Below, piece by piece: positions 2,583 to 10,912 of a stretch of 64,000 nt of DNA. The position numbers and the translations under genes were made by a program. How positions within the stretch are numbered: the stretch's first letter is position 1; each line of letters opens with the position of its first letter. Below the pieces are notes generated by a model, which saw nothing but the letters and a program-made list of their open reading frames with translations, searched no databases and was not told where the DNA came from. The stretch is from an uncultured Candidatus Saccharibacteria bacterium. Its GTDB lineage: Bacteria; Patescibacteriota; Saccharimonadia; Saccharimonadales; CAIOMD01. The stretch is from contig OY970318.1 in NCBI GenBank assembly GCA_963716565.1, positions 128,830 to 192,829 on the forward strand, written 5' to 3'.

Positions 2583-3023
2583 GTGGAGGAATCGTTGTAT
2601 AGCAAGTTGGTGGACGTAGTTCACGATGCTTTTGGGAAACAGCCACTACGTTCAACGGAGTGGCTACGGTTTCTTCAGCAGCATGGTGCGGGCATGTCGG
2701 ACTACTTCAACGCCTACTCGGTGTTAGAAGGTGCCGATGAGATTGCGCTCTACTTGGTGCTAATAGGTGCTGGCTGTTCTAGCGGCGCGGCTCTGGCCGT
2801 TGCACTGGATACTCACCTGTACGCCAAGCTGTACGCTGGCCTGGACGACAACGCCGCTCGGCGGGATAAGAAGTCCGCTAAGGCTTTCGAGCGATCGACA
2901 AGGGTGATCCTGTACGATGCCTTGGCAGCCAACAAGCGTGGCGAGTACGCCAAGCTGTCGGTGCAAGAGCGCCGTCAGTTTGTCACCGAGGTCCTGGCCG
3001 ACTGGGTATCTTCTCGCCAGTAA
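2583..3023 (+). CDS. hypothetical protein (G/C-rich orphan)
   Basis: 146-aa ORF with a GTG start after SD aggagg and strongly G/C-ending codons. No family was recognised. Confidence 0.55.
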   Translation: MEESLYSKLVDVVHDAFGKQPLRSTEWLRFLQQHGAGMSDYFNAYSVLEGADEIALYLVLIGAGCSSGAALAVALDTHLYAKLYAGLDDNAARRDKKSAKAFERSTRVILYDALAANKRGEYAKLSVQERRQFVTEVLADWVSSRQ

Positions 3024-3098
3024 AGGCATCAAGAAGTGCCCGATGCCCAATCTTGCATCACAGACATTTTGCCGGTTTAAGTCTTTAAAAAAACCGGT

Positions 3099-3150
3099 GT
3101 AGTCGTAGATTGTTTTATCTGCCTGACGAGCTCAAAAAGAGCGAAACTAC
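3099..3150 (+). ncRNA. hammerhead ribozyme, type III topology (cleavage predicted after C3104)
   Basis: Reads GUAGUC|GUAGAU-UGUUUU-AUCUGC-CUGACGA-GCUC-AAAAA-GAGC-GAA-ACUAC. The full core is present: CUGANGA, GAA, the A15.1-U16.1 pair and a GUC cleavage triplet. Stems I, II and III have 6, 4 and 5 bp. Confidence 0.85.
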
Positions 3151-3915
3151 CTACTTATGCGTCAAAATAAAGTTAACGGTATCAGAGTATTCTGTTTTTG
3201 CTTTAATTGGCTTTAGCGGCTTTTGGGCCTCTAAGCTAAATGTTAGGGCTGAATTTAAAGAATCTTGCTCGCTGTGTCTTTCTAGCCCCTTTAGCTCATC
3301 AATATTACTTTGTTTTTCTTTATAGCGTTTGATATTGTCAAAGCCCAGCGCTTTTACGGTTTCATCTAAGGCTTCAAAATCCCATAGGTATTTGTGGCCA
3401 AAACCAATGAAGCTGGTGTTTAAAAACTCCGAGCCTAACATTTTATGGCGTTTTTTGTAGATTGGCTTTTTTATATCCGGAACAATTCGCTGCTGGAGTT
3501 TTAAGAAACTTTCCAACACCCTTTTATCTTTATTCACATAGGCTTTACAAATTGCCTCTAAGTCTGGCATAGATATCCGTATTATGCCACCGGGCTTTAA
3601 TACCCTGTATATTTCGTGTAAGTGTTTTACGGTTTGTTCGTAGCTTAGGTGCTCTAAAAAATGTTCCGAAAAAGCGTAATCAATAGAGCTATTTTTAAAT
3701 GGCAACTTTTTTAGGGCGTTAAAATAAACATCACCAGTCCAGATATCTGCTGTTAGCCACCCCGGCTGCTTAACTGGCAGTTCGCCAGGGGCTAAGTGGA
3801 GTTTTCTGACAGCATTGCTGTTTAAATACTCTCTAATTTTAAAATATCTAACCAGATGCCCCTTTTTTAGTTGGTGCTTTATTCTGTTTGATCTATGTAG
3901 CCATTGCCCGGTCAT
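3151..3915 (-). CDS. class I SAM-dependent methyltransferase
   Basis: 254-aa ORF with a Methyltransf_11/23-like motif (LKPGGIIRISMPDLE) and the surrounding Rossmann pattern. Confidence 0.65.
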   Translation of the reverse strand: MTGQWLHRSNRIKHQLKKGHLVRYFKIREYLNSNAVRKLHLAPGELPVKQPGWLTADIWTGDVYFNALKKLPFKNSSIDYAFSEHFLEHLSYEQTVKHLHEIYRVLKPGGIIRISMPDLEAICKAYVNKDKRVLESFLKLQQRIVPDIKKPIYKKRHKMLGSEFLNTSFIGFGHKYLWDFEALDETVKALGFDNIKRYKEKQSNIDELKGLERHSEQDSLNSALTFSLEAQKPLKPIKAKTEYSDTVNFILTHK

Positions 3916-4445: not shown

Positions 4446-5960
4446 TTAAGGTGAATATACCGTTATGGTTAGATAGTTATCTTTGTCTCGCAGCTCATTA
4501 GCGGTGTAGGTTTTTGGCAACTCATCTTTCCAGCGGGAATCTTTATCGATGGCTAAAAAGGTGGCATCATCATTCAGGGTGCACGAAGGCGATAAATCAT
4601 TCTTCTGGCTGTAATATGCTATTTGTAAGGGTTTCTGGTTTGTCAAATAATCAATAGTCCACTTGGTATGAAACGTGCTACCTAACACGCAGTACTTATT
4701 TTGTGGATTTTCTAAAATATACTCAGCTGCCTCGCTGGCATTGTAAAAATAAGCTTCCTTGGTTTTATCTGCGACGGCCCATCTTTGAAAATAGCCTGTA
4801 TAGCTAGAATAGGCTGTAAAGAGGTATATAAGGCAGACTGCTGATGGTATCAAAATCTTGAGCATTCGTTGTTTGGCTTTGATATTTAACAGCAGGTTAA
4901 AACCGTAGGCTGTTATGGTGACCAAAAATGGCAAAGCCCCTATGTTTCTTAAATAATGCGGGGCATTATGGTAACCGATAAAGCCGGGCACTAACATTAG
5001 CAACAGCCAGCTGGCGCAAAAAAGAACTTTTTTATCTCGTTTTTTGTATGCCCATACCAAGGCGCCTACAAAAAATGGTGCCACCACGTAAGACAGAGCC
5101 GGTTGGGCAAAGGTATTGTGCCGAGGCTCACCATCGCCTTTTATAAAGAACATAGCTGCCGTTTTGGCAGAAGTAACCGCTACGGCTCTGGGTACAGAAG
5201 GGGCATTTAAGATGCTAATGTCTCCACGAGTTGCAAAATAATCGGGGTGTCTTAGATATGTAGTAGCTATTGGAACCAACACAATCAAGGTAGTTAGCGA
5301 AGCAAGAACTATTGCCTTACGAATTTTTGGACGCTTAAAGAATGCCCATGCGACAAACATCAAAACAAACAAAAAGTAGAATCTGTAAGAGGTGTAAGTA
5401 TAAGCGCCTAGGCCAAAGAATAATCCTGCTAACATTGGCCAAAGTACTAGGCGGGGCTTTTTGTATGCTATACCAGCCATCCATACGGATAGACAAACAA
5501 TTAGCGGAAATAAGTTAGCCCTAAAACCGTCCCGGCTTACGACAATGGCCCATGGCAAGAGGGCATATAACAGGGCCGCTAAAAAGCCGATTCTCTTGCC
5601 AAAAAAATGCTTTACGGCGCAATATAAAACGATTGTTGTAATAATGCCAATGATTGCTGGCGCGATACGTAAGCCAAAAATTGTATTACCAAAGATTAGT
5701 ACCCCGATTGATTGTAAATAAAAAAACAGCGCTTCGCGGTAGCCATTAAGAGGATAAATTGTCTGCCAGTTACCCTTAAATATATTTTGTAAAATATCCA
5801 GCCCATTAGCGGCCTCGTCGCCATATAGACCTGGGGGTGTGGTGTTAAGGTGGTATAACCTAAAAAAACCACTTACAAGCAATAGGACGAGGATAGCAAT
5901 AATTTCTATTTTATGTTTTTTAATATAGCTGTACATCTTTTGCACCTGACGCCCCTCCAA
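4446..5960 (-). CDS. ArnT/GT39-like membrane glycosyltransferase
   Basis: 504-aa polytopic membrane protein with the N-terminal pattern LYHLNTTPPGLYGDEAANG typical of the GT39/GT83 (PMT_2) family. The start is uncertain (5960, 5945 or 5936). Confidence 0.65.
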   Translation of the reverse strand: MEGRQVQKMYSYIKKHKIEIIAILVLLLVSGFFRLYHLNTTPPGLYGDEAANGLDILQNIFKGNWQTIYPLNGYREALFFYLQSIGVLIFGNTIFGLRIAPAIIGIITTIVLYCAVKHFFGKRIGFLAALLYALLPWAIVVSRDGFRANLFPLIVCLSVWMAGIAYKKPRLVLWPMLAGLFFGLGAYTYTSYRFYFLFVLMFVAWAFFKRPKIRKAIVLASLTTLIVLVPIATTYLRHPDYFATRGDISILNAPSVPRAVAVTSAKTAAMFFIKGDGEPRHNTFAQPALSYVVAPFFVGALVWAYKKRDKKVLFCASWLLLMLVPGFIGYHNAPHYLRNIGALPFLVTITAYGFNLLLNIKAKQRMLKILIPSAVCLIYLFTAYSSYTGYFQRWAVADKTKEAYFYNASEAAEYILENPQNKYCVLGSTFHTKWTIDYLTNQKPLQIAYYSQKNDLSPSCTLNDDATFLAIDKDSRWKDELPKTYTANELRDKDNYLTITVYSP

Positions 5961-6046: not shown

Positions 6047-7096
6047 ATGAATAAAAATATGGCCGCTACTTTTGCAGAAATCACCAAGACACAAGAATCG
6101 CTTAAGCTCAAGTTTGCCAAACTAGAAGATAAGTCGGCAATTTTAAAAGATGCCGAATTTAGAGCTTTGCTTAATGGTATTGCCAAACAACCAACCGAGC
6201 AGCGGGCGGCCTATGGGCGAGCAGTTAATGAACTAAAACAAGAGATTTTAAGTTGGCTAAACCAGGCTGGCAGTAGCGTGACGCACCTAACGCCAATCGA
6301 CATCACTGCGCCGTTTGATGTAAATAGCAAACCAGCCGACAGGCCACGTTTGCTGGGTAGCGACCAAGGCAGTACCCATCCGTTAATGGCCGAGCTAGAT
6401 AATATTTTAGATATTTTTTACCGAATGGGCTTTGAGGCGGTAGAGTCGCGTCAAATTGACGATGATTACCATATGTTCGAAGCCTTAAACTTCCCAGCTG
6501 GCCACCCCGCCCGCGACGATTATGATAGCTTTACGACTACCGATGGCTTAATCGCCCCGGCTCATACCAGCACTATGCAAAACAGGGTGTTAAAAGCCAA
6601 CAAAAAGAACCTAGAAAACGGTGAAGCTATCGCCACAGTTATACCGGGCCGAGTTTTTAGAAACGAAGATTTAGATGCTCGCCACGAGCATACTTTTTAC
6701 CAAATCGAAGGCGTTTATGTAGGTAGGGGCGTTAATACTGGTCACTTAATTGCTACCTTAAAAACTTTCTTGCAAGAATATTACCAACAAGAACTAGATG
6801 TTCGCACTCAGCCATTCTATTTCCCATTCACCGAACCTAGTTTTGAGTTTGCCTTAAGTTGCCCGTTCTGTAAAAAGAAGGGCTGTAACATTTGTGGCCA
6901 AGAGGGCTGGATAGAACTTATTGGCTGTGGCTTAATTCACCCCAACGTTCTAAAAGAAGCCGGCATTGACCCCAAAGTTTATACCGGCTTTGCCTTTGGG
7001 CTAGGGATTGATCGCTTGGTAATGATGAAATATAACATAGAAGACATCCGCCATTTTGAAAGTGGTAAGCTAGAATTTTTGAGGCAATTCAAATGA
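6047..7096 (+). CDS. pheS: phenylalanine--tRNA ligase alpha subunit
   Basis: Class II aaRS motifs (FPAGHPARD, GRVFRNE, GFAFGLGIDRL). ATGA overlap with pheT. The start is ambiguous (6014, 6047 or 6059); a TTCAAC-17-TATAAT promoter ends at 6048. Confidence 0.9.
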   Translation: MNKNMAATFAEITKTQESLKLKFAKLEDKSAILKDAEFRALLNGIAKQPTEQRAAYGRAVNELKQEILSWLNQAGSSVTHLTPIDITAPFDVNSKPADRPRLLGSDQGSTHPLMAELDNILDIFYRMGFEAVESRQIDDDYHMFEALNFPAGHPARDDYDSFTTTDGLIAPAHTSTMQNRVLKANKKNLENGEAIATVIPGRVFRNEDLDARHEHTFYQIEGVYVGRGVNTGHLIATLKTFLQEYYQQELDVRTQPFYFPFTEPSFEFALSCPFCKKKGCNICGQEGWIELIGCGLIHPNVLKEAGIDPKVYTGFAFGLGIDRLVMMKYNIEDIRHFESGKLEFLRQFK

Positions 7097-9593: not shown

Positions 9594-9622
9594 TTGTAAT
9601 TTACGCAAAATAAGTTTATAAT
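9594..9622 (+). promoter_or_regulatory. sigma70-type promoter (TTGTAA-17-TATAAT)
   Basis: Perfect -10 and 17-nt spacer, 3 nt after the pheT stop. It would drive the two small ORFs and possibly the tRNA cluster. Confidence 0.6.
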
Positions 9623-9729
9623 AGCCGTTCTGGAATTGCCCCCAAACAGCACGACTGTATTGTGTGAGGCAGGTCCTTTCACAATCAGGTGTTGTTGATT
9701 AGAAACCTACGAGGCCTGGAGGCCATAAT

Positions 9730-9897
9730 ATGTTCGAGGCTGTGCTTGCGTGTGTGATCTTGTTGGTGCAAGTAGTCGTACTGGTATACGTAGCTGTTCT
9801 TATGATCAGCTCGTCTAAGTTGCATTGTAGAATGATGCAGCGACCTGAGCAGTTTAGCCAAGATGGTGGACTATCAGAACCCAAAAGGAAGTGGTGA
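9730..9897 (+). CDS. small hydrophobic protein, 55 aa (below the ORF-track cutoff)
   Basis: My translation is MFEAVLACVILLVQVVVLVYVAVLMISSSKLHCRMMQRPEQFSQDGGLSEPKRKW. SD ggagg lies 9 nt upstream. One TM helix and a charged tail. Confidence 0.4.
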   Translation: MFEAVLACVILLVQVVVLVYVAVLMISSSKLHCRMMQRPEQFSQDGGLSEPKRKW

Positions 9898-9900
9898 GTG

Positions 9901-10050
9901 ATGAAACGGCAGCCAACTTGTCAGCACAAAGCCCAAGAGCCAGTGTATTCGCGCTTGTGGCGAAAACGCAAGATCGTTAGGTACCGATGTATCAATTGTG
10001 GCCAGAAGGTACGTGTTCGTAAGATCAGGCGCTATCGCTGCCAGACATAA
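9901..10050 (+). CDS. small basic Cys-containing (zinc-ribbon-like) protein, 49 aa
   Basis: My translation is MKRQPTCQHKAQEPVYSRLWRKRKIVRYRCINCGQKVRVRKIRRYRCQT. It starts 3 nt after the previous stop, preceded by SD aaggaag. It has a CxH...CxxC...C pattern. Confidence 0.4.
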   Translation: MKRQPTCQHKAQEPVYSRLWRKRKIVRYRCINCGQKVRVRKIRRYRCQT

Positions 10051-10059
10051 TTGGCAAGG

Positions 10060-10133
10060 GGCCGTATAGCTCAGTGGCAGAGCGGTCGGGGTAAGACTCG
10101 ATGTCGTCAGCGGTTCGAGCCCGCTTACGGCCA
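10060..10133 (+). tRNA. tRNA-like gene with irregular anticodon arm (identity undetermined)
   Basis: The acceptor (GGCCGUA/UACGGCC), D arm (GCUC-AGUGGCA-GAGC) and T arm (AGCGG-UUCGAGC-CCGCU) are canonical. The anticodon arm folds only as 6 bp with a 6-nt loop (GUAAGA), or as 5 bp with an 8-nt loop (GGUAAGAC). Confidence 0.5.
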
Positions 10134-10159: not shown

Positions 10160-10232
10160 TGGCGCGTAGCTCAGCCCGGGAGAGCACCCCCTTACAGGGG
10201 GGAGGTCGATGGTTCAAACCCATCCGTGCCCA
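10160..10232 (+). tRNA. tRNA-Val(UAC)-like, with a register anomaly in the anticodon stem
   Basis: The D and T arms are canonical. The sequence GAGC-A-CCCCC-UUACA-GGGGGG-AGGUC resembles tRNA-Val (loop CUUACAG), but has 5 C against 6 G and a U1:C72 mismatch. Confidence 0.6.
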
Positions 10233-10244
10233 TTTTGTAACGTG

Positions 10245-10341
10245 GTGTCTGAAGCTCAGTATTGGCAGCGAGCAACCCAATCATATCCAATTAAAGGAGT
10301 GGAGGGGAAGGAGTTTGCGGGTTCAAGTCCCGCCAGACACA
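10245..10341 (+). tRNA. tRNA-like element or disrupted tRNA (97 nt) lacking a foldable anticodon arm
   Basis: Perfect 7-bp acceptor (GUGUCUG/CAGACAC), a D stem GCUC/GAGC and a T arm GCGGG-UUCAAGU-CCCGC. The 43-nt centre reads ACCCA-AUCAUAU followed by a purine-rich UAAAGGAGUGGAGGGGAAGGAGUUU, and I found no 5-bp stem with a 7-nt loop in it. Confidence 0.35.
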
Positions 10342-10548
10342 CTTTGGTGTTGGTTGTCAGATAAGGTTGAACCAATCTGGCGCCAAACACACCAGCACCA
10401 ACTCGTGGCAGTGACTTCACTAGCCAGCGCGTACTTCCAAGGTACGTAGGCGTTCCTAGCGCCGACCTCAAAGAGGGGGTTGCGCACACAGCGAATCCTA
10501 CCATTCCTATCGTTCGCAACCTTAGCTTACTAGTGATCACTGCCCCCG

Positions 10549-10621
10549 CTTCCTGTAGCTCAGTTGGCAGAGCGCCGCCTTTCTACGGCGGAAGTCGCTG
10601 GTTCGAGTCCAGCCAGGGAGA
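10549..10621 (+). tRNA. tRNA-Arg (anticodon UCU)
   Basis: Fully canonical cloverleaf: acceptor CUUCCUG/CAGGGAG, anticodon arm CCGCC-UUUCUAC-GGCGG, variable loop AAGUC, T arm GCUGG-UUCGAGU-CCAGC. Confidence 0.9.
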
Positions 10622-10912
10622 CCTCGGCGCGTGGGAGACCCCTTTCCTCCGAACAACACGTGTCGAATGCTGCTATGGGTGGCCAGCCCAATAGCAGCGG
10701 CTTCTTCAAGTCCGAGGTGGGCGCTGTTCTGATCTTTGTCCACGGTACAATGTGACAATCCAGACAGCGCCCCTTTGGGCTCAATCATACAACACCTGAT
10801 CTTTACCCTAAATCACGAACTTCGCGGTTTGAGGCAAAGAATCAATTTTTACTACATAAAATTATTTGCATAAATAAAAACATTGCTATAATTAGGTCCG
10901 AGAGAGGGATTT

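What the first reader, a model, noticed from the sequence alone, without database searches (positions are those of the whole stretch)
10245..10341. tRNA-shaped RNA whose anticodon arm is replaced by a purine-rich, SD-like tract
The element has a perfect 7-bp acceptor stem, a GCUC/GAGC D stem and a GCGGG-UUCAAGU-CCCGC T arm, so it should be recognised by tRNA-processing enzymes. After the D arm the sequence reads A-ACCCA-AUCAUAU, which looks like the 5' strand of an anticodon stem followed by a U33-CAU-A37-like loop. No complementary 3' strand follows. Instead there is UAAAGGAGUGGAGGGGAAGGAGUUU, which contains three GGAG-type motifs. I tested every 5-bp stem/7-nt loop register across 10263-10316 and none pairs. 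It may be a disrupted tRNA(CAU), a tRNA with an unconventional insertion, or a tRNA-like RNA with another role. An anti-SD-complementary tract on a tRNA scaffold is one speculative possibility.
Basis: partly seen in the sequence, partly recalled or inferred. Interest (0 to 1): 0.6.

Follow-up and report, generated by a model that had tools for sequence, protein, structure and literature searches.

The report
Non-decoding tRNA-like module in modular RNA locus
The element is a real tRNA-shaped RNA that keeps the upper half of a tRNA but has an ordinary hairpin in place of the anticodon arm, and it is one of several such modules inside an apparently undescribed, fast-changing non-coding RNA locus of Saccharibacteria whose leader resembles that of a ribosomal RNA operon.

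Summary
The described features are present at 10245-10341 (+): a 7-bp acceptor stem, a GCUC/GAGC D stem, a canonical T arm, and no 5-bp/7-nt anticodon arm. The purine-rich "SD-like" tract is not unpaired. It forms the 3' strand of a 10-bp interrupted hairpin, and an ortholog keeps this hairpin with compensatory changes.

The window is a Saccharimonadales (CPR/TM7) chromosome. The element is one of four tRNA-like modules in a 1.25-kb transcription unit just after pheT. That unit has a sigma-70 promoter, a hairpin, a boxA-like GUCCUUUCACA, and a 12-bp long-range helix enclosing a variable, strongly structured interior, followed by a terminal hairpin. At least 25 related loci share this framework, and the helix arms covary. 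No Rfam family matches it.

Across 15 modules the acceptor, D and T pairs are 97.5% paired, and 13 of 16 pairs show double changes. The central arm, in contrast, can be any hairpin of 5-13 bp. Positional orthologs do not keep an anticodon.

So this is not a disrupted tRNA(CAU), not an intron-bearing tRNA, and not a conserved anti-SD sponge. It is most likely a non-decoding tRNA mimic that marks RNase P/Z processing sites in an rrn-style precursor. That function is inferred, not shown.

The parts
9594..9622 (+). Sigma-70-type promoter TTGTAA-17-TATAAT of the RNA locus, starting 3 nt after the pheT stop codon
   Evidence: Promoter scan gives 10 of 12 matches. The promoter is conserved in L001-L004, L173 and L174.
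9632..9676 (+). P1 leader hairpin (boxB-like): GGAAUUGCC...GGCAGGUCC, with an inner ACAG/CUGU hairpin
   Evidence: RNAfold of the leaders of 22 loci gives a hairpin at this position in nearly all, with different sequences.
9673..9683 (+). boxA-like element GUCCUUUCACA
   Evidence: It matches the gamma-proteobacterial boxA consensus GYTCTTTAANA at 9 of 11 positions, including the critical C4 (consensus from bioRxiv 10.1101/091223). 19 of 26 leaders score at least 9 of 11, against 1.6% of random 30-mers.
9684..9695 (+). P2 5' arm AUCAGGUGUUGU of the long-range closing helix (boxC-like / processing-stem-like)
   Evidence: It is perfectly complementary to 10789-10800. In 22 loci the arms are 10-16 bp, perfectly paired, and differ in sequence. 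MFE folds of whole RNAs keep this helix.
9730..9897 (+). Micro-ORF 1: 55 aa, very hydrophobic, with a GGAGG SD (optional cargo)
   Evidence: No significant Pfam match.
9901..10050 (+). Micro-ORF 2: 49 aa, basic, CxH...CxxC zinc-ribbon-like, with an SD (optional cargo)
   Evidence: Fast-evolving homologs occur in L001, L173 (shared C-terminus RKIRRYRCQT) and L174.
10060..10132 (+). tRNA-like module T1, with a 6-bp central stem and a 6-nt loop
   Evidence: Rfam tRNA 45.3 bits. ARAGORN calls 'tRNA-???'. The L174 ortholog keeps the 6-bp/6-nt arm with two compensatory pairs.
10160..10231 (+). tRNA-like module T2, with arm CCCCC-UUACAG-GGGGG (6-nt loop) and a U1-C72 mismatch
   Evidence: Orthologs are present in L173 and L004.
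10245..10341 (+). The focal element: tRNA-like module T3 (B type).
- acceptor stem 10245-51 / 10334-40
- A8 A9 at 10252-53
- D arm 10254-73
- extended central arm 10276-10306 (loop 10289-95)
- variable-loop region 10307-16
- T arm 10317-33
- A73 at 10341
10342..10548 (+). Inter-module domain of long hairpins
   Evidence: MFE -86.9 kcal/mol, z = -6.2, with 0 of 200 shuffles as stable.
10549..10620 (+). tRNA-like module T4. It looks like a canonical tRNA-Arg(UCU).
   Evidence: Rfam 66.8 bits. The positional orthologs read Val(AAC), Ile(AAU), a 6-nt loop, or are truncated.
10621..10788 (+). 3' interior domain: three hairpins, including GGGCGCUGU...ACAGCGCCC
   Evidence: z = -6.2. It aligns in part with L001-L004.
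10789..10800 (+). P2 3' arm ACAACACCUGAU
10801..10851 (+). P3 three-tier terminal hairpin (10801-10839) followed by AAUCAAUUUUUA
   Evidence: The hairpin is conserved in 22 loci with covarying stems. It is followed by a U-run, making an intrinsic terminator, in L007, L033 and L171.

Best explanation
The element is a non-decoding tRNA mimic. It keeps the tRNA "top half": the 7-bp acceptor stem, the T arm with a UUCAAGU loop, and the D arm with GG, which together form the elbow. The anticodon arm has been replaced by a sequence-unconstrained hairpin.

It is one of four such modules, together with stable hairpin domains and two micro-ORFs, in a single transcription unit downstream of pheT. That unit is built like an rRNA operon without rRNA. 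It has a promoter, a leader hairpin, a boxA-like antitermination signal, and a long-range stem that pairs the leader with the trailer, followed by a terminal or terminator hairpin.

Proposed mechanism, all of it inferred:
1. Nus factors load at boxA and carry RNA polymerase through the long, mostly untranslated, structured RNA without Rho termination.
2. The closing stem is an RNase III-type site, or a stabilising clamp.
3. The tRNA-like modules are recognised by RNase P at the 5' side and RNase Z or exonucleases at the 3' side.
4. This cuts the precursor into separate stable pieces and leaves a tRNA-like RNA of about 96 nt.

What is shown: the anatomy, its conservation, its covariation, and the lack of constraint on the anticodon region. 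What is not shown: transcription, Nus binding, cleavage, and any trans function.
For: - **Taxon.** PheT homologs are Saccharimonadales.
- **tRNA-like body.** Rfam tRNA scores 34.1 bits. My model R1 scores the element 54.6 bits without having been trained on it, and it finds 15-16 modules, all on the + strand and all inside framework interiors.
- **Selection on the top half.** 97.5% of 240 pair cells are paired, 13 of 16 pairs have double changes, and 0 of 500 shuffles reach these values; slid controls give 35-46%. GG in the D loop and UUCRA in the T loop are present in all 13 parsed modules.
- **No anticodon constraint.** Central arms have 5-13 bp with loops of 3-8 nt, and only 4 of 13 have a 7-nt loop. 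B-type orthologs in L002, L003 and L174 have 7 bp + 5 nt with unrelated sequences. The L004 ortholog keeps the long arm, with CCC/GGG changed to CCU/AGG and UCAU/GUGG changed to UCGU/AUGG.
- **Framework.** The promoter is found. P2 arms are perfect and covary in 22 loci. P1 and P3 hairpins are conserved. Terminators appear. There is a single copy per locus, always after pheT on the same strand.
- **boxA.** 19 of 26 leaders match the consensus at 9 or more of 11 positions, against 1.6% of random sequences (consensus). The rrn order boxB-boxA-boxC, with boxC inside the RNase III stem, is described in PMC8632103. boxA protects other long non-coding arrays from Rho (PMC7665894).
- **Structured interior.** The non-tRNA interior segments have z = -6.2.
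Against: - No expression or end-mapping data are available.
- Single modules are dispensable. L173 (FKBP 97% identical) and L001 lack the focal module, and 13 of about 25 framework loci have no tRNA-like module at all.
- The -1 and +74 nucleotides show no conserved RNase P or RNase Z signature.
- A8 replaces the near-universal U8 here and in L003.
- The boxA-like element could not be compared with the same genomes' own rrn leaders, because no rRNA gene is in any held locus.
- P2 has very few G-U pairs (6 in about 280 bp). This would also fit a DNA-level inverted repeat.
- The focal arm alone is not more stable than shuffles.
Confidence: 0.5

Rival explanations
1. Decaying relic. The modules are tRNA pseudogenes, for example leftovers of spacer tRNAs from a degenerate rRNA or tRNA operon. 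They drift neutrally in a transcribed spacer that boxA protects from Rho, and the focal element has no function.
For: - Modules are present or absent even between very close relatives.
- L001 and L173 carry a truncated module that lacks the D arm and the central arm.
- Module bodies resemble tRNA-Ile and tRNA-Ala spacer tRNAs (own knowledge).
- A8 replaces U8.
- Many framework loci have no module.
Against: - A neutral relic should lose helices. Instead 97.5% of top-half pairs hold, with 13 of 16 pairs compensated.
- The elbow nucleotides are invariant.
- The replaced arms are themselves always clean hairpins, kept by compensatory changes: T1 between the window and L174, and B type between the window and L004.
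- Neighbouring segments are extremely structured.
Confidence: 0.2
2. A stable tRNA-like small RNA that acts in trans after release. Possible roles are a decoy or sponge for tRNA-binding enzymes or tRNA-targeting toxins, a partner of the co-encoded basic zinc-ribbon microprotein, or an amino-acid carrier for a non-ribosomal reaction.
For: - An intact acceptor/T minihelix and elbow are what such proteins read (own knowledge).
- Cys-rich or zinc-ribbon micro-ORFs recur in the same loci.
- Fast turnover would fit a conflict-type role.
- The L171 module has G3-U70, the AlaRS determinant (own knowledge).
Against: - No conserved identity elements are shared across modules.
- The micro-ORFs are not homologous between clades, and 10 of 17 loci examined have none.
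- The focal module is missing from close relatives.
Confidence: 0.15
3. A functional but unconventional decoding tRNA. It could be an intron-containing tRNA(CAU), or a suppressor that reads UAA with the UUA in the 7-nt loop AAUUAAA.
For: - The body scores as a tRNA.
- The distal loop has 7 nt with a central UUA.
Against: - Position 33 of that loop is A, not U.
- The arm would have 10 bp plus an internal loop and a bulge.
- Orthologs have 5-nt loops and unrelated sequences.
- The CAU triplet is not conserved.
- No 3' strand for a normal anticodon stem follows the insert.
- ARAGORN, which models introns, finds nothing.
- Close relatives lack the module.
Confidence: 0.04
4. SD mimic. The purine-rich GGAG x3 tract pairs with the 16S rRNA anti-SD (a ribosome sponge on a tRNA scaffold), or serves as the RBS of an ORF starting at TTG 10316.
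For: - The tract has three GGAG motifs.
- Two of the ten arm pairs are G-U, so the arm could open.
- A 44-codon ORF follows.
Against: - The tract is absent from all orthologs except for the shared GGAAGG junction.
- It is paired in the MFE and centroid structures.
- The ORF is not conserved and runs through the T arm and acceptor stem.
- The spacing of AAGGAG to the TTG is 1-2 nt.
Confidence: 0.03
5. The flanking 12-bp inverted repeats are DNA-level sites, such as MITE ends or an invertible segment. On this reading the tRNA-like genes are cargo of a mobile or invertible element rather than parts of one RNA.
For: The repeats are perfect and have almost no G-U pairs. The interior is variable.
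Against: - There is a single copy per locus and none elsewhere in the 64-kb window.
- The position after pheT is constant down to about 50% PheT identity.
- All interiors have the same orientation relative to the promoter.
- The repeat sequences covary between species while sitting inside a conserved leader and trailer with a promoter and a terminator.
- No recombinase gene lies nearby.
Confidence: 0.05

Closest known systems
Canonical bacterial tRNA (Rfam RF00005)
   Same: A 7-bp acceptor stem, a 4-bp D stem with GG in the loop, a 5-bp T stem with a UUCAAGU loop, an A73 discriminator, and a 5-nt-type AAGGN variable region. The Rfam score is above the gathering threshold.
   Different: There is no 5-bp anticodon stem or 7-nt loop with U33. 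A8 replaces U8. No anticodon is conserved among orthologs. ARAGORN does not call it. It lies inside a larger structured transcript together with similar defective modules.
tRNA-like processing modules in long non-coding RNAs: mascRNA of MALAT1, menRNA of NEAT1 (PMC8457004, PMC9777231), and the GUT15 tRNA-like RNA of Arabidopsis (PMC6152437)
   Same: These are tRNA mimics embedded in a long non-coding transcript. They are not used for decoding, and tRNA-processing enzymes use their shape to define RNA ends.
   Different: Those are eukaryotic, single modules, and experimentally shown to be cut by RNase P and RNase Z. Here the organism is a bacterium, there are up to four modules per RNA, and cleavage is only inferred.
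rRNA operon leader (boxB-boxA-boxC) with the RNase III processing stem and spacer tRNAs (PMC8632103; boxA consensus in PMC5725501 / bioRxiv 10.1101/091223)
   Same: The order is hairpin, then a boxA-like sequence, then a GU-rich strand that pairs with a distant downstream strand to enclose the product. tRNA-shaped units sit inside the transcript.
   Different: The enclosed RNA is not rRNA. It is a 350-1100-nt variable array. The boxA match is 9 of 11 here and 10 of 11 in three other leaders. Nus binding and RNase III cleavage are untested, and the organism's own rrn boxA is unknown.
boxA-protected CRISPR arrays (PMC7665894)
   Same: A long, modular, untranslated array preceded by a boxA that would prevent Rho termination.
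   Different: There are no repeats or spacers and no cas genes. The modules are tRNA-like RNAs and hairpins.
YrlA / bacterial Y RNA tRNA-like domain (Rfam RF02553)
   Same: A non-coding RNA with a closing stem formed by its two ends and a domain that mimics the tRNA D and T arms.
   Different: The Rfam score is 16.4 bits against a gathering score of 69. In YrlA the RNA ends lie on the anticodon-stem side and the acceptor is closed (own knowledge). Here each module has an open acceptor stem and a closed central arm. The presence of an rsr (Ro) gene was not tested.
GOLLD and ROOL large ornate RNAs (PMC5737381)
   Same: Large structured bacterial RNAs that are often found next to tRNAs, possibly co-transcribed with them.
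   Different: Neither family matches at gathering or at E up to 5-10. This locus is chromosomal and syntenic, and its interior is variable rather than conserved and ornate.

Membership tests
Canonical decoding tRNA | 7-bp acceptor stem, 4-bp D stem with G18 G19, and 5-bp T stem with a T-Psi-C-R-A loop | tested here: met
   Direct reading and parsing; pair counts across modules.
Canonical decoding tRNA | 5-bp anticodon stem with a 7-nt loop, U33 and a purine at position 37 | tested here: not met
   The central region is a 10-bp interrupted arm with loop AAUUAAA, which has A at position 33. Rfam aligns it only by skipping 37 nt.
Canonical decoding tRNA | U8 (forms the U8-A14 tertiary pair) | tested here: not met
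   Positions 8-9 are AA at 10252-10253. The role of U8 is own knowledge.
Canonical decoding tRNA | The anticodon or identity is conserved among orthologs | tested here: not met
   B-type orthologs in L002, L003, L004 and L174 have unrelated central arms. ARAGORN labels them Asn(att), Thr(cgt) or nothing.
Canonical decoding tRNA | Detected by standard tRNA finders | tested here: inconclusive
   Rfam RF00005 scores 34.1 bits against 29, but ARAGORN gives no call.
Canonical decoding tRNA | Aminoacylated and used on the ribosome | not testable with these tools
   This needs acid-gel northern blots or tRNA-seq.
Intron-containing tRNA | An intact anticodon stem-loop is restored once the insert is removed (bulge-helix-bulge motif or group I core) | tested here: not met
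   No UGGGU-type 3' strand follows the insert. ARAGORN with intron models finds nothing. No group I hit in Rfam.
tmRNA / tRNA-like domain of tmRNA | An acceptor + T arm formed by the two RNA ends, enclosing a tag ORF and pseudoknots | tested here: not met
   ARAGORN's tmRNA search and Rfam are both negative.
YrlA / bacterial Y RNA | Match to RF02553 | tested here: not met
   16.4 bits against a gathering score of 69, and the match lies over T1-T2, not the focal element.
YrlA / bacterial Y RNA | An adjacent rsr (Ro / TROVE) gene | not tested
   Only 27 of about 50 window ORFs were scanned; none of them is TROVE.
rrn-type antitermination leader | boxA sequence (GYTCTTTAANA, with the critical C4) | tested here: inconclusive
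   The window matches at 9 of 11 with C4. L002, L033 and L175 match at 10 of 11. 19 of 26 leaders reach 9 or more, against 1.6% of random 30-mers. The consensus is from a distant phylum.
rrn-type antitermination leader | A hairpin (boxB) upstream, and a downstream strand (boxC) that pairs with a distant 3' strand | tested here: met
   P1 and P2 are present in 22 loci. The rrn architecture is described in PMC8632103.
rrn-type antitermination leader | The leader encloses an rRNA gene | tested here: not met
   No rRNA is found by Rfam or by conserved rRNA motifs.
rrn-type antitermination leader | NusB/NusE binding, and the same boxA as the genome's own rrn operons | not testable with these tools
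Known large ncRNA families (GOLLD, ROOL, RNase P, 6S, others in Rfam 15) | A covariance-model match | tested here: not met
   No hits other than tRNA in the window or in 22 related loci.

The most novel reading that the evidence does not exclude
The pheT-downstream locus is a previously undescribed class of "orphan rrn-like" operon in Saccharibacteria. It would be a boxA-antiterminated, stem-enclosed precursor that is cut at tRNA-top-half modules into a changing set of stable structured RNAs and zinc-ribbon microprotein mRNAs. The released tRNA mimics would act in trans, for example as decoys for tRNA-targeting nucleases or tRNA-modifying toxins in phage or host conflict, or as parts of a small RNP.
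Probability: 0.25. Interest if true: 0.8.

Novelty: new variant of a known kind. Interest (0 to 1): 0.6.

Why it matters
- **Annotation.** The several "tRNAs" with impossible anticodons (A34 Asn/Val/Ile/Phe/Asp, or 6-nt loops) that tRNA finders report next to pheT in Saccharibacteria would be modules of a non-coding RNA, not decoders. This matters for tRNA-set and codon-usage inferences in these reduced genomes.
- **A bacterial counterpart to a eukaryotic principle.** It would be the bacterial equivalent of the mascRNA/MALAT1 arrangement, in which tRNA shape is used as a processing or stability signal inside a long non-coding RNA.
- **A third use of boxA.** It would be a third kind of transcript, after rRNA and CRISPR arrays, that appears to use boxA antitermination.
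- **Testability.** The framework (P1, boxA, P2, P3) is conserved and easy to model, so its distribution and expression can be tested directly in public CPR transcriptomes.

Tried and rejected
- **Phage tRNA cluster (my first guess).** Rejected. The neighbours are pheS, pheT, FKBP, glutaredoxin, thioredoxin reductase and H+-PPase. Megablast against phages finds nothing. Distant blastn against phages and plasmids hits only generic tRNAs, and only over T4.
- **Metagenome and viral scans with the 3' trailer pattern.** These gave 83 + 1 hits, all chance or unrelated (plant and fungal DNA, groEL trailers).
- **Exact look-ups of the window's own FKBP and PheT.** Neither is on record.
- **Known RNA family for the framework.** None found. 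A passing resemblance of interior sequences to the RNase P P4 strand was not backed by any Rfam hit.
- **MITE or inverton reading of the flanking repeats.** Rejected on single copy, synteny, fixed orientation and covariation.
- **The SD tract as an RBS.** The downstream 44-codon ORF is not conserved and the spacing is wrong.
- **Comparison with real rrn leaders.** Not possible, because no rRNA gene is in any of 172 held loci.
- **Thermodynamic support for the focal arm alone.** Not significant (z = -1.26).
- **Pfam on the micro-ORFs.** Only generic zinc-ribbon or DnaJ-CR/Anti-TRAP-like matches in some.
Full report
**1. What is at the coordinates**

Window 10245-10341 (+) reads GUGUCUG-AA-GCUC-AGUAUUGGCAGC-GAGC-AACCCAAUCAUAUCCAAUUAAAGGAGUGGAGGGGAAGGAGUUU-GCGGG-UUCAAGU-CCCGC-CAGACAC-A.

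Rfam's tRNA model reaches 34.1 bits (gathering score 29) by treating 37 central nucleotides as a local skip. ARAGORN does not call it.

The MFE and centroid folds (whole element z = -3.1) keep the cloverleaf frame. They turn the centre into one long interrupted arm:
- CCC/GGG
- an AA/A internal loop
- UCAU/GUGG, with two G-U pairs
- a bulged A
- UCC/GGA
- the loop AAUUAAA

The "purine-rich SD-like tract" is therefore the 3' strand of that arm plus an AAGGAGUUU variable-loop region. On its own the arm is weak (-8.7 kcal/mol, z = -1.26).

**2. Where it sits**

The window is a chromosome of Saccharimonadales (CPR/TM7). The 832-aa protein upstream is PheT, and its closest named homologs are from Candidatus Saccharimonadales. 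The genes further along the window are ordinary housekeeping genes.

The 1.3-kb gap between pheT and an FKBP gene holds four tRNA-like genes:
- T1, 10060-10132, with a 6-nt loop
- T2, 10160-10231, with a 6-nt loop
- T3, the focal element
- T4, 10549-10620, which looks like tRNA-Arg(UCU)

Two micro-ORFs with SD sequences lie upstream of them. No other tRNA-like sequence occurs in the 64 kb.

**3. The surrounding transcription unit is conserved; its content is not**

I fetched the same region from relatives. The DNA right after the pheT stop and the DNA just before the next gene's promoter are conserved. What lies between them differs.

The conserved frame, in window coordinates, is:
- a promoter TTGTAA-17-TATAAT at 9594-9622
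- a hairpin P1 at 9632-9676
- the sequence GUCCUUUCACA at 9673-9683
- a 12-nt strand AUCAGGUGUUGU at 9684-9695, perfectly complementary to ACAACACCUGAU at 10789-10800
- a three-tier hairpin P3 at 10801-10839, followed by a short U-run

In 22 loci the two long-range strands are 10-16 nt and perfectly complementary, yet differ in sequence. Examples are GACAGGCGUGAU, GACAGAUAUGAUGAU, AGGCAGAUAAUA and UAGCAGGUAUAG. P1 and P3 are hairpins everywhere. In L007, L033 and L171, P3 is followed by a U-run, which makes it an intrinsic terminator.

HMM searches find one copy per locus, always downstream of pheT on the same strand, sometimes after one inserted gene. At least 25 of about 90 loci examined have the frame. 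Rfam has no family for it.

**4. The leader looks like an rRNA-operon leader**

The most conserved leader segment is G-N-N-C-U-U-U-N-A-C-A. Against the gamma-proteobacterial boxA consensus GYTCTTTAANA (Baniulyte et al., bioRxiv 10.1101/091223 = PMC5725501):
- the window matches at 9 of 11 positions, including the critical C4
- L002, L033 and L175 match at 10 of 11
- 19 of 26 leaders reach 9 or more, against 1.6% of random 30-mers of the same composition

In rrn operons the order is boxB hairpin, boxA, then boxC. boxC takes part in the long-range duplex around 16S rRNA that RNase III cuts (PMC8632103). The order here is the same: hairpin, boxA-like element, GU-rich strand of a long-range duplex.

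boxA is also used to protect long untranslated CRISPR arrays from Rho (PMC7665894).

**5. The interior**

Interiors are 311-1093 nt long and richer in G+C than the genome (0.46-0.63 against about 0.44). MFE folds show a string of independent long hairpins inside the closing helix. In the window, the two non-tRNA interior segments fold with z = -6.2 each, and 0 of 200 shuffles are as stable.

Seven of the 17 loci examined carry a small Cys-rich or zinc-ribbon ORF with a strong SD. These ORFs are of unrelated types in different clades.

tRNA-like modules occur in the window's clade (L001-L005, L171, L173-L175) and in L050, L055, L016 (a mini form) and L057. They are absent from many other frames.

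Content turns over quickly. L173, whose FKBP is 97% identical to the window's, lacks T1, T3 and T4, and has different micro-ORFs.

**6. The modules are selected as tRNA top halves, not as decoders**

I built a covariance model from five modules, without the focal one. It finds 15-16 modules, all on the + strand and all inside frames. The focal element scores 54.6 bits.

On the resulting alignment:
- 97.5% of 240 pair cells form standard pairs, against 74% in shuffles and 35-46% when the partners are slid
- 13 of 16 pairs show changes on both sides
- 0 of 500 shuffles reach any of the measures

One caveat applies: the alignment was fitted to the model, and it mixes paralogs with orthologs.

All 13 parsed modules keep GG in the D loop and UUCRA in the T loop.

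The central arm, in contrast, is any hairpin of 5-13 bp with a loop of 3-8 nt, and only 4 of 13 have a 7-nt loop. ARAGORN's labels for these modules are Asn(att), Val(aac), Ile(aat), Phe(aaa), Asp(atc) and Thr(cgt). A34 anticodons of this kind are essentially not used by bacteria (own knowledge).

Positional orthologs change "identity". T4 reads Arg(UCU) in the window, Val(AAC) in L002 and Ile(AAU) in L004. It has a 6-nt loop in L003 and is truncated in L001 and L173.

**7. Orthologs of the focal element**

The alignments identify B-type orthologs with the same acceptor/T frame:

| Locus | Coordinates | Central arm |
|---|---|---|
| L002 | 6604-6678 | UCUUUGC-CAUUC-GCAAAGA |
| L003 | 2921-2995 | CCCUGCC-GCGUA-GGUAGGG |
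| L174 | 3020-3094 | CCUUGUC-AUCAA-GACAAGG |
| L004 | 4681-4769 | long arm |

Three orthologs thus have a 7-bp stem and a 5-nt loop with unrelated sequences.

L004 has the long form, CCUA-A-UCGU-A-UCCC-GUUUA-GGGA-AUGG-C-UAGG. This is the window's architecture with these changes:
- one double compensatory change (C-G to U-A)
- two one-sided changes that keep pairing (A-U to G-U, and U-G to U-A)
- no disruptive change

Acceptor and T stems also covary among the five: G3-C70 to A-U, U4-A69 to C-G, and 49-65 as G-C, A-U or G-U.

Independent assemblies from different samples carry the long arm or its short forms, so an assembly artefact is unlikely, although reads were not checked. L001 and L173 lack the module.

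**8. Interpretation**

The element is not a recently broken tRNA(CAU), not an intron-bearing tRNA, and not a conserved SD mimic. It is a tRNA mimic whose upper half is under selection and whose lower half only needs to be a helix.

The acceptor/T minihelix plus the elbow is what RNase P, RNase Z and the CCA-adding enzyme recognise (own knowledge). The module lies in a long, mostly untranslated, boxA-led and stem-enclosed precursor. The most economical mechanism is therefore punctuation: cleavage at module borders separates the hairpin domains and micro-ORF mRNAs, as spacer tRNAs do in rrn operons and as mascRNA does for MALAT1 (PMC8457004).

I hold the identity statement (a non-decoding module of a conserved modular RNA locus) at about 0.85, and the processing mechanism at about 0.45.

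The rival explanations are:
- a neutral relic, at 0.2; it is weakened by the covariation
- a trans-acting tRNA-like sRNA or RNP component, at 0.15; this is compatible with processing
- DNA-level repeats, at 0.05
- an unconventional decoder, at 0.04
- an SD sponge or RBS, at 0.03

**9. Novelty**

No Rfam family matches the framework. Full-text searches for Saccharibacteria or Patescibacteria with "tRNA-like", and the 224-motif survey (PMC5737381), turned up no description of it.

tRNA mimicry, boxA leaders and leader-trailer stems are each known. Their combination around a variable array in CPR bacteria appears to be new. Hence the rating "new variant of a known kind", with a moderately high interest score that rests on the locus as much as on the single element.

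Noticed in passing
window 10549-10620 (+): The only canonical-looking tRNA in the window, Arg(UCU) at 66.8 bits, is probably another module. Its positional orthologs read Val(AAC) in L002 and Ile(AAU) in L004, have a 6-nt loop in L003, and are truncated in L001 and L173. Its D loop has C where bacterial tRNA-Arg normally has A20 (own knowledge).
   Followed up: partly
window 10060-10132 and 10160-10231 (+): Two more tRNA-like genes have 6-nt "anticodon" loops, and ARAGORN labels them tRNA-???. The 6-bp/6-nt arm of T1 is kept in L174 with two compensatory pairs. T2 has a U1-C72 mismatch and is conserved in L173.
   Followed up: partly
window 9730-9897 and 9901-10050 (+): Two micro-ORFs with SD sequences lie inside the RNA locus. 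One is a 55-aa, very hydrophobic peptide. The other is a 49-aa, basic CxH...CxxC zinc-ribbon-like protein. Its relatives in L001, L173 and L174 evolve very fast. Other clades carry unrelated Cys-rich micro-ORFs (DnaJ-CXXCXGXG/Anti-TRAP-like in L005 and L171, an L37ae-like ribbon in L036).
   Followed up: partly
window 10342-10548 and 10621-10788 (+): These interior segments, which have no tRNA shape, fold far better than shuffles (z = -6.2 each). They are long hairpin domains of unknown role.
   Followed up: partly
window 10651-10661 and 10342-10360 (+): AACAACACGUG is a 9 of 11 near-copy of the 3' closing-helix strand, so it could form an alternative closing helix. The stretch right after the focal element (CUUUGGUGUUGGUUG) resembles the leader's CUUUCACAAUCAGGUGUUGUUG.
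   Followed up: no
L175 2440-3110 and 4096-4710: This relative has two tandem leaders (boxA-like GAUCUUUAACA and GAUCUUUGACA, each followed by AUCAGGUGUUG) with a 139-aa ORF and a terminator between them. A NYN-domain (nuclease-fold) gene is inserted between the RNA locus and the FKBP gene. Its 105-nt module (3147-3251) has a branched central arm.
   Followed up: partly
L172 position 1; L001 3376-4004; L002 3535-3936: The contig of L172 starts exactly at the FKBP gene, so the assembly broke inside the RNA locus. The pheS-pheT junction is also variable: the genes overlap in the window, two small ORFs sit there in L001, and a 23S_rRNA_IVP-family ORF sits there in L002.
   Followed up: no
L002 6577-7269 (-): A gene caller placed a 230-aa minus-strand ORF, with no Pfam hit on record, over the structured RNA interior. 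It is probably a spurious call caused by the G+C-rich RNA.
   Followed up: no
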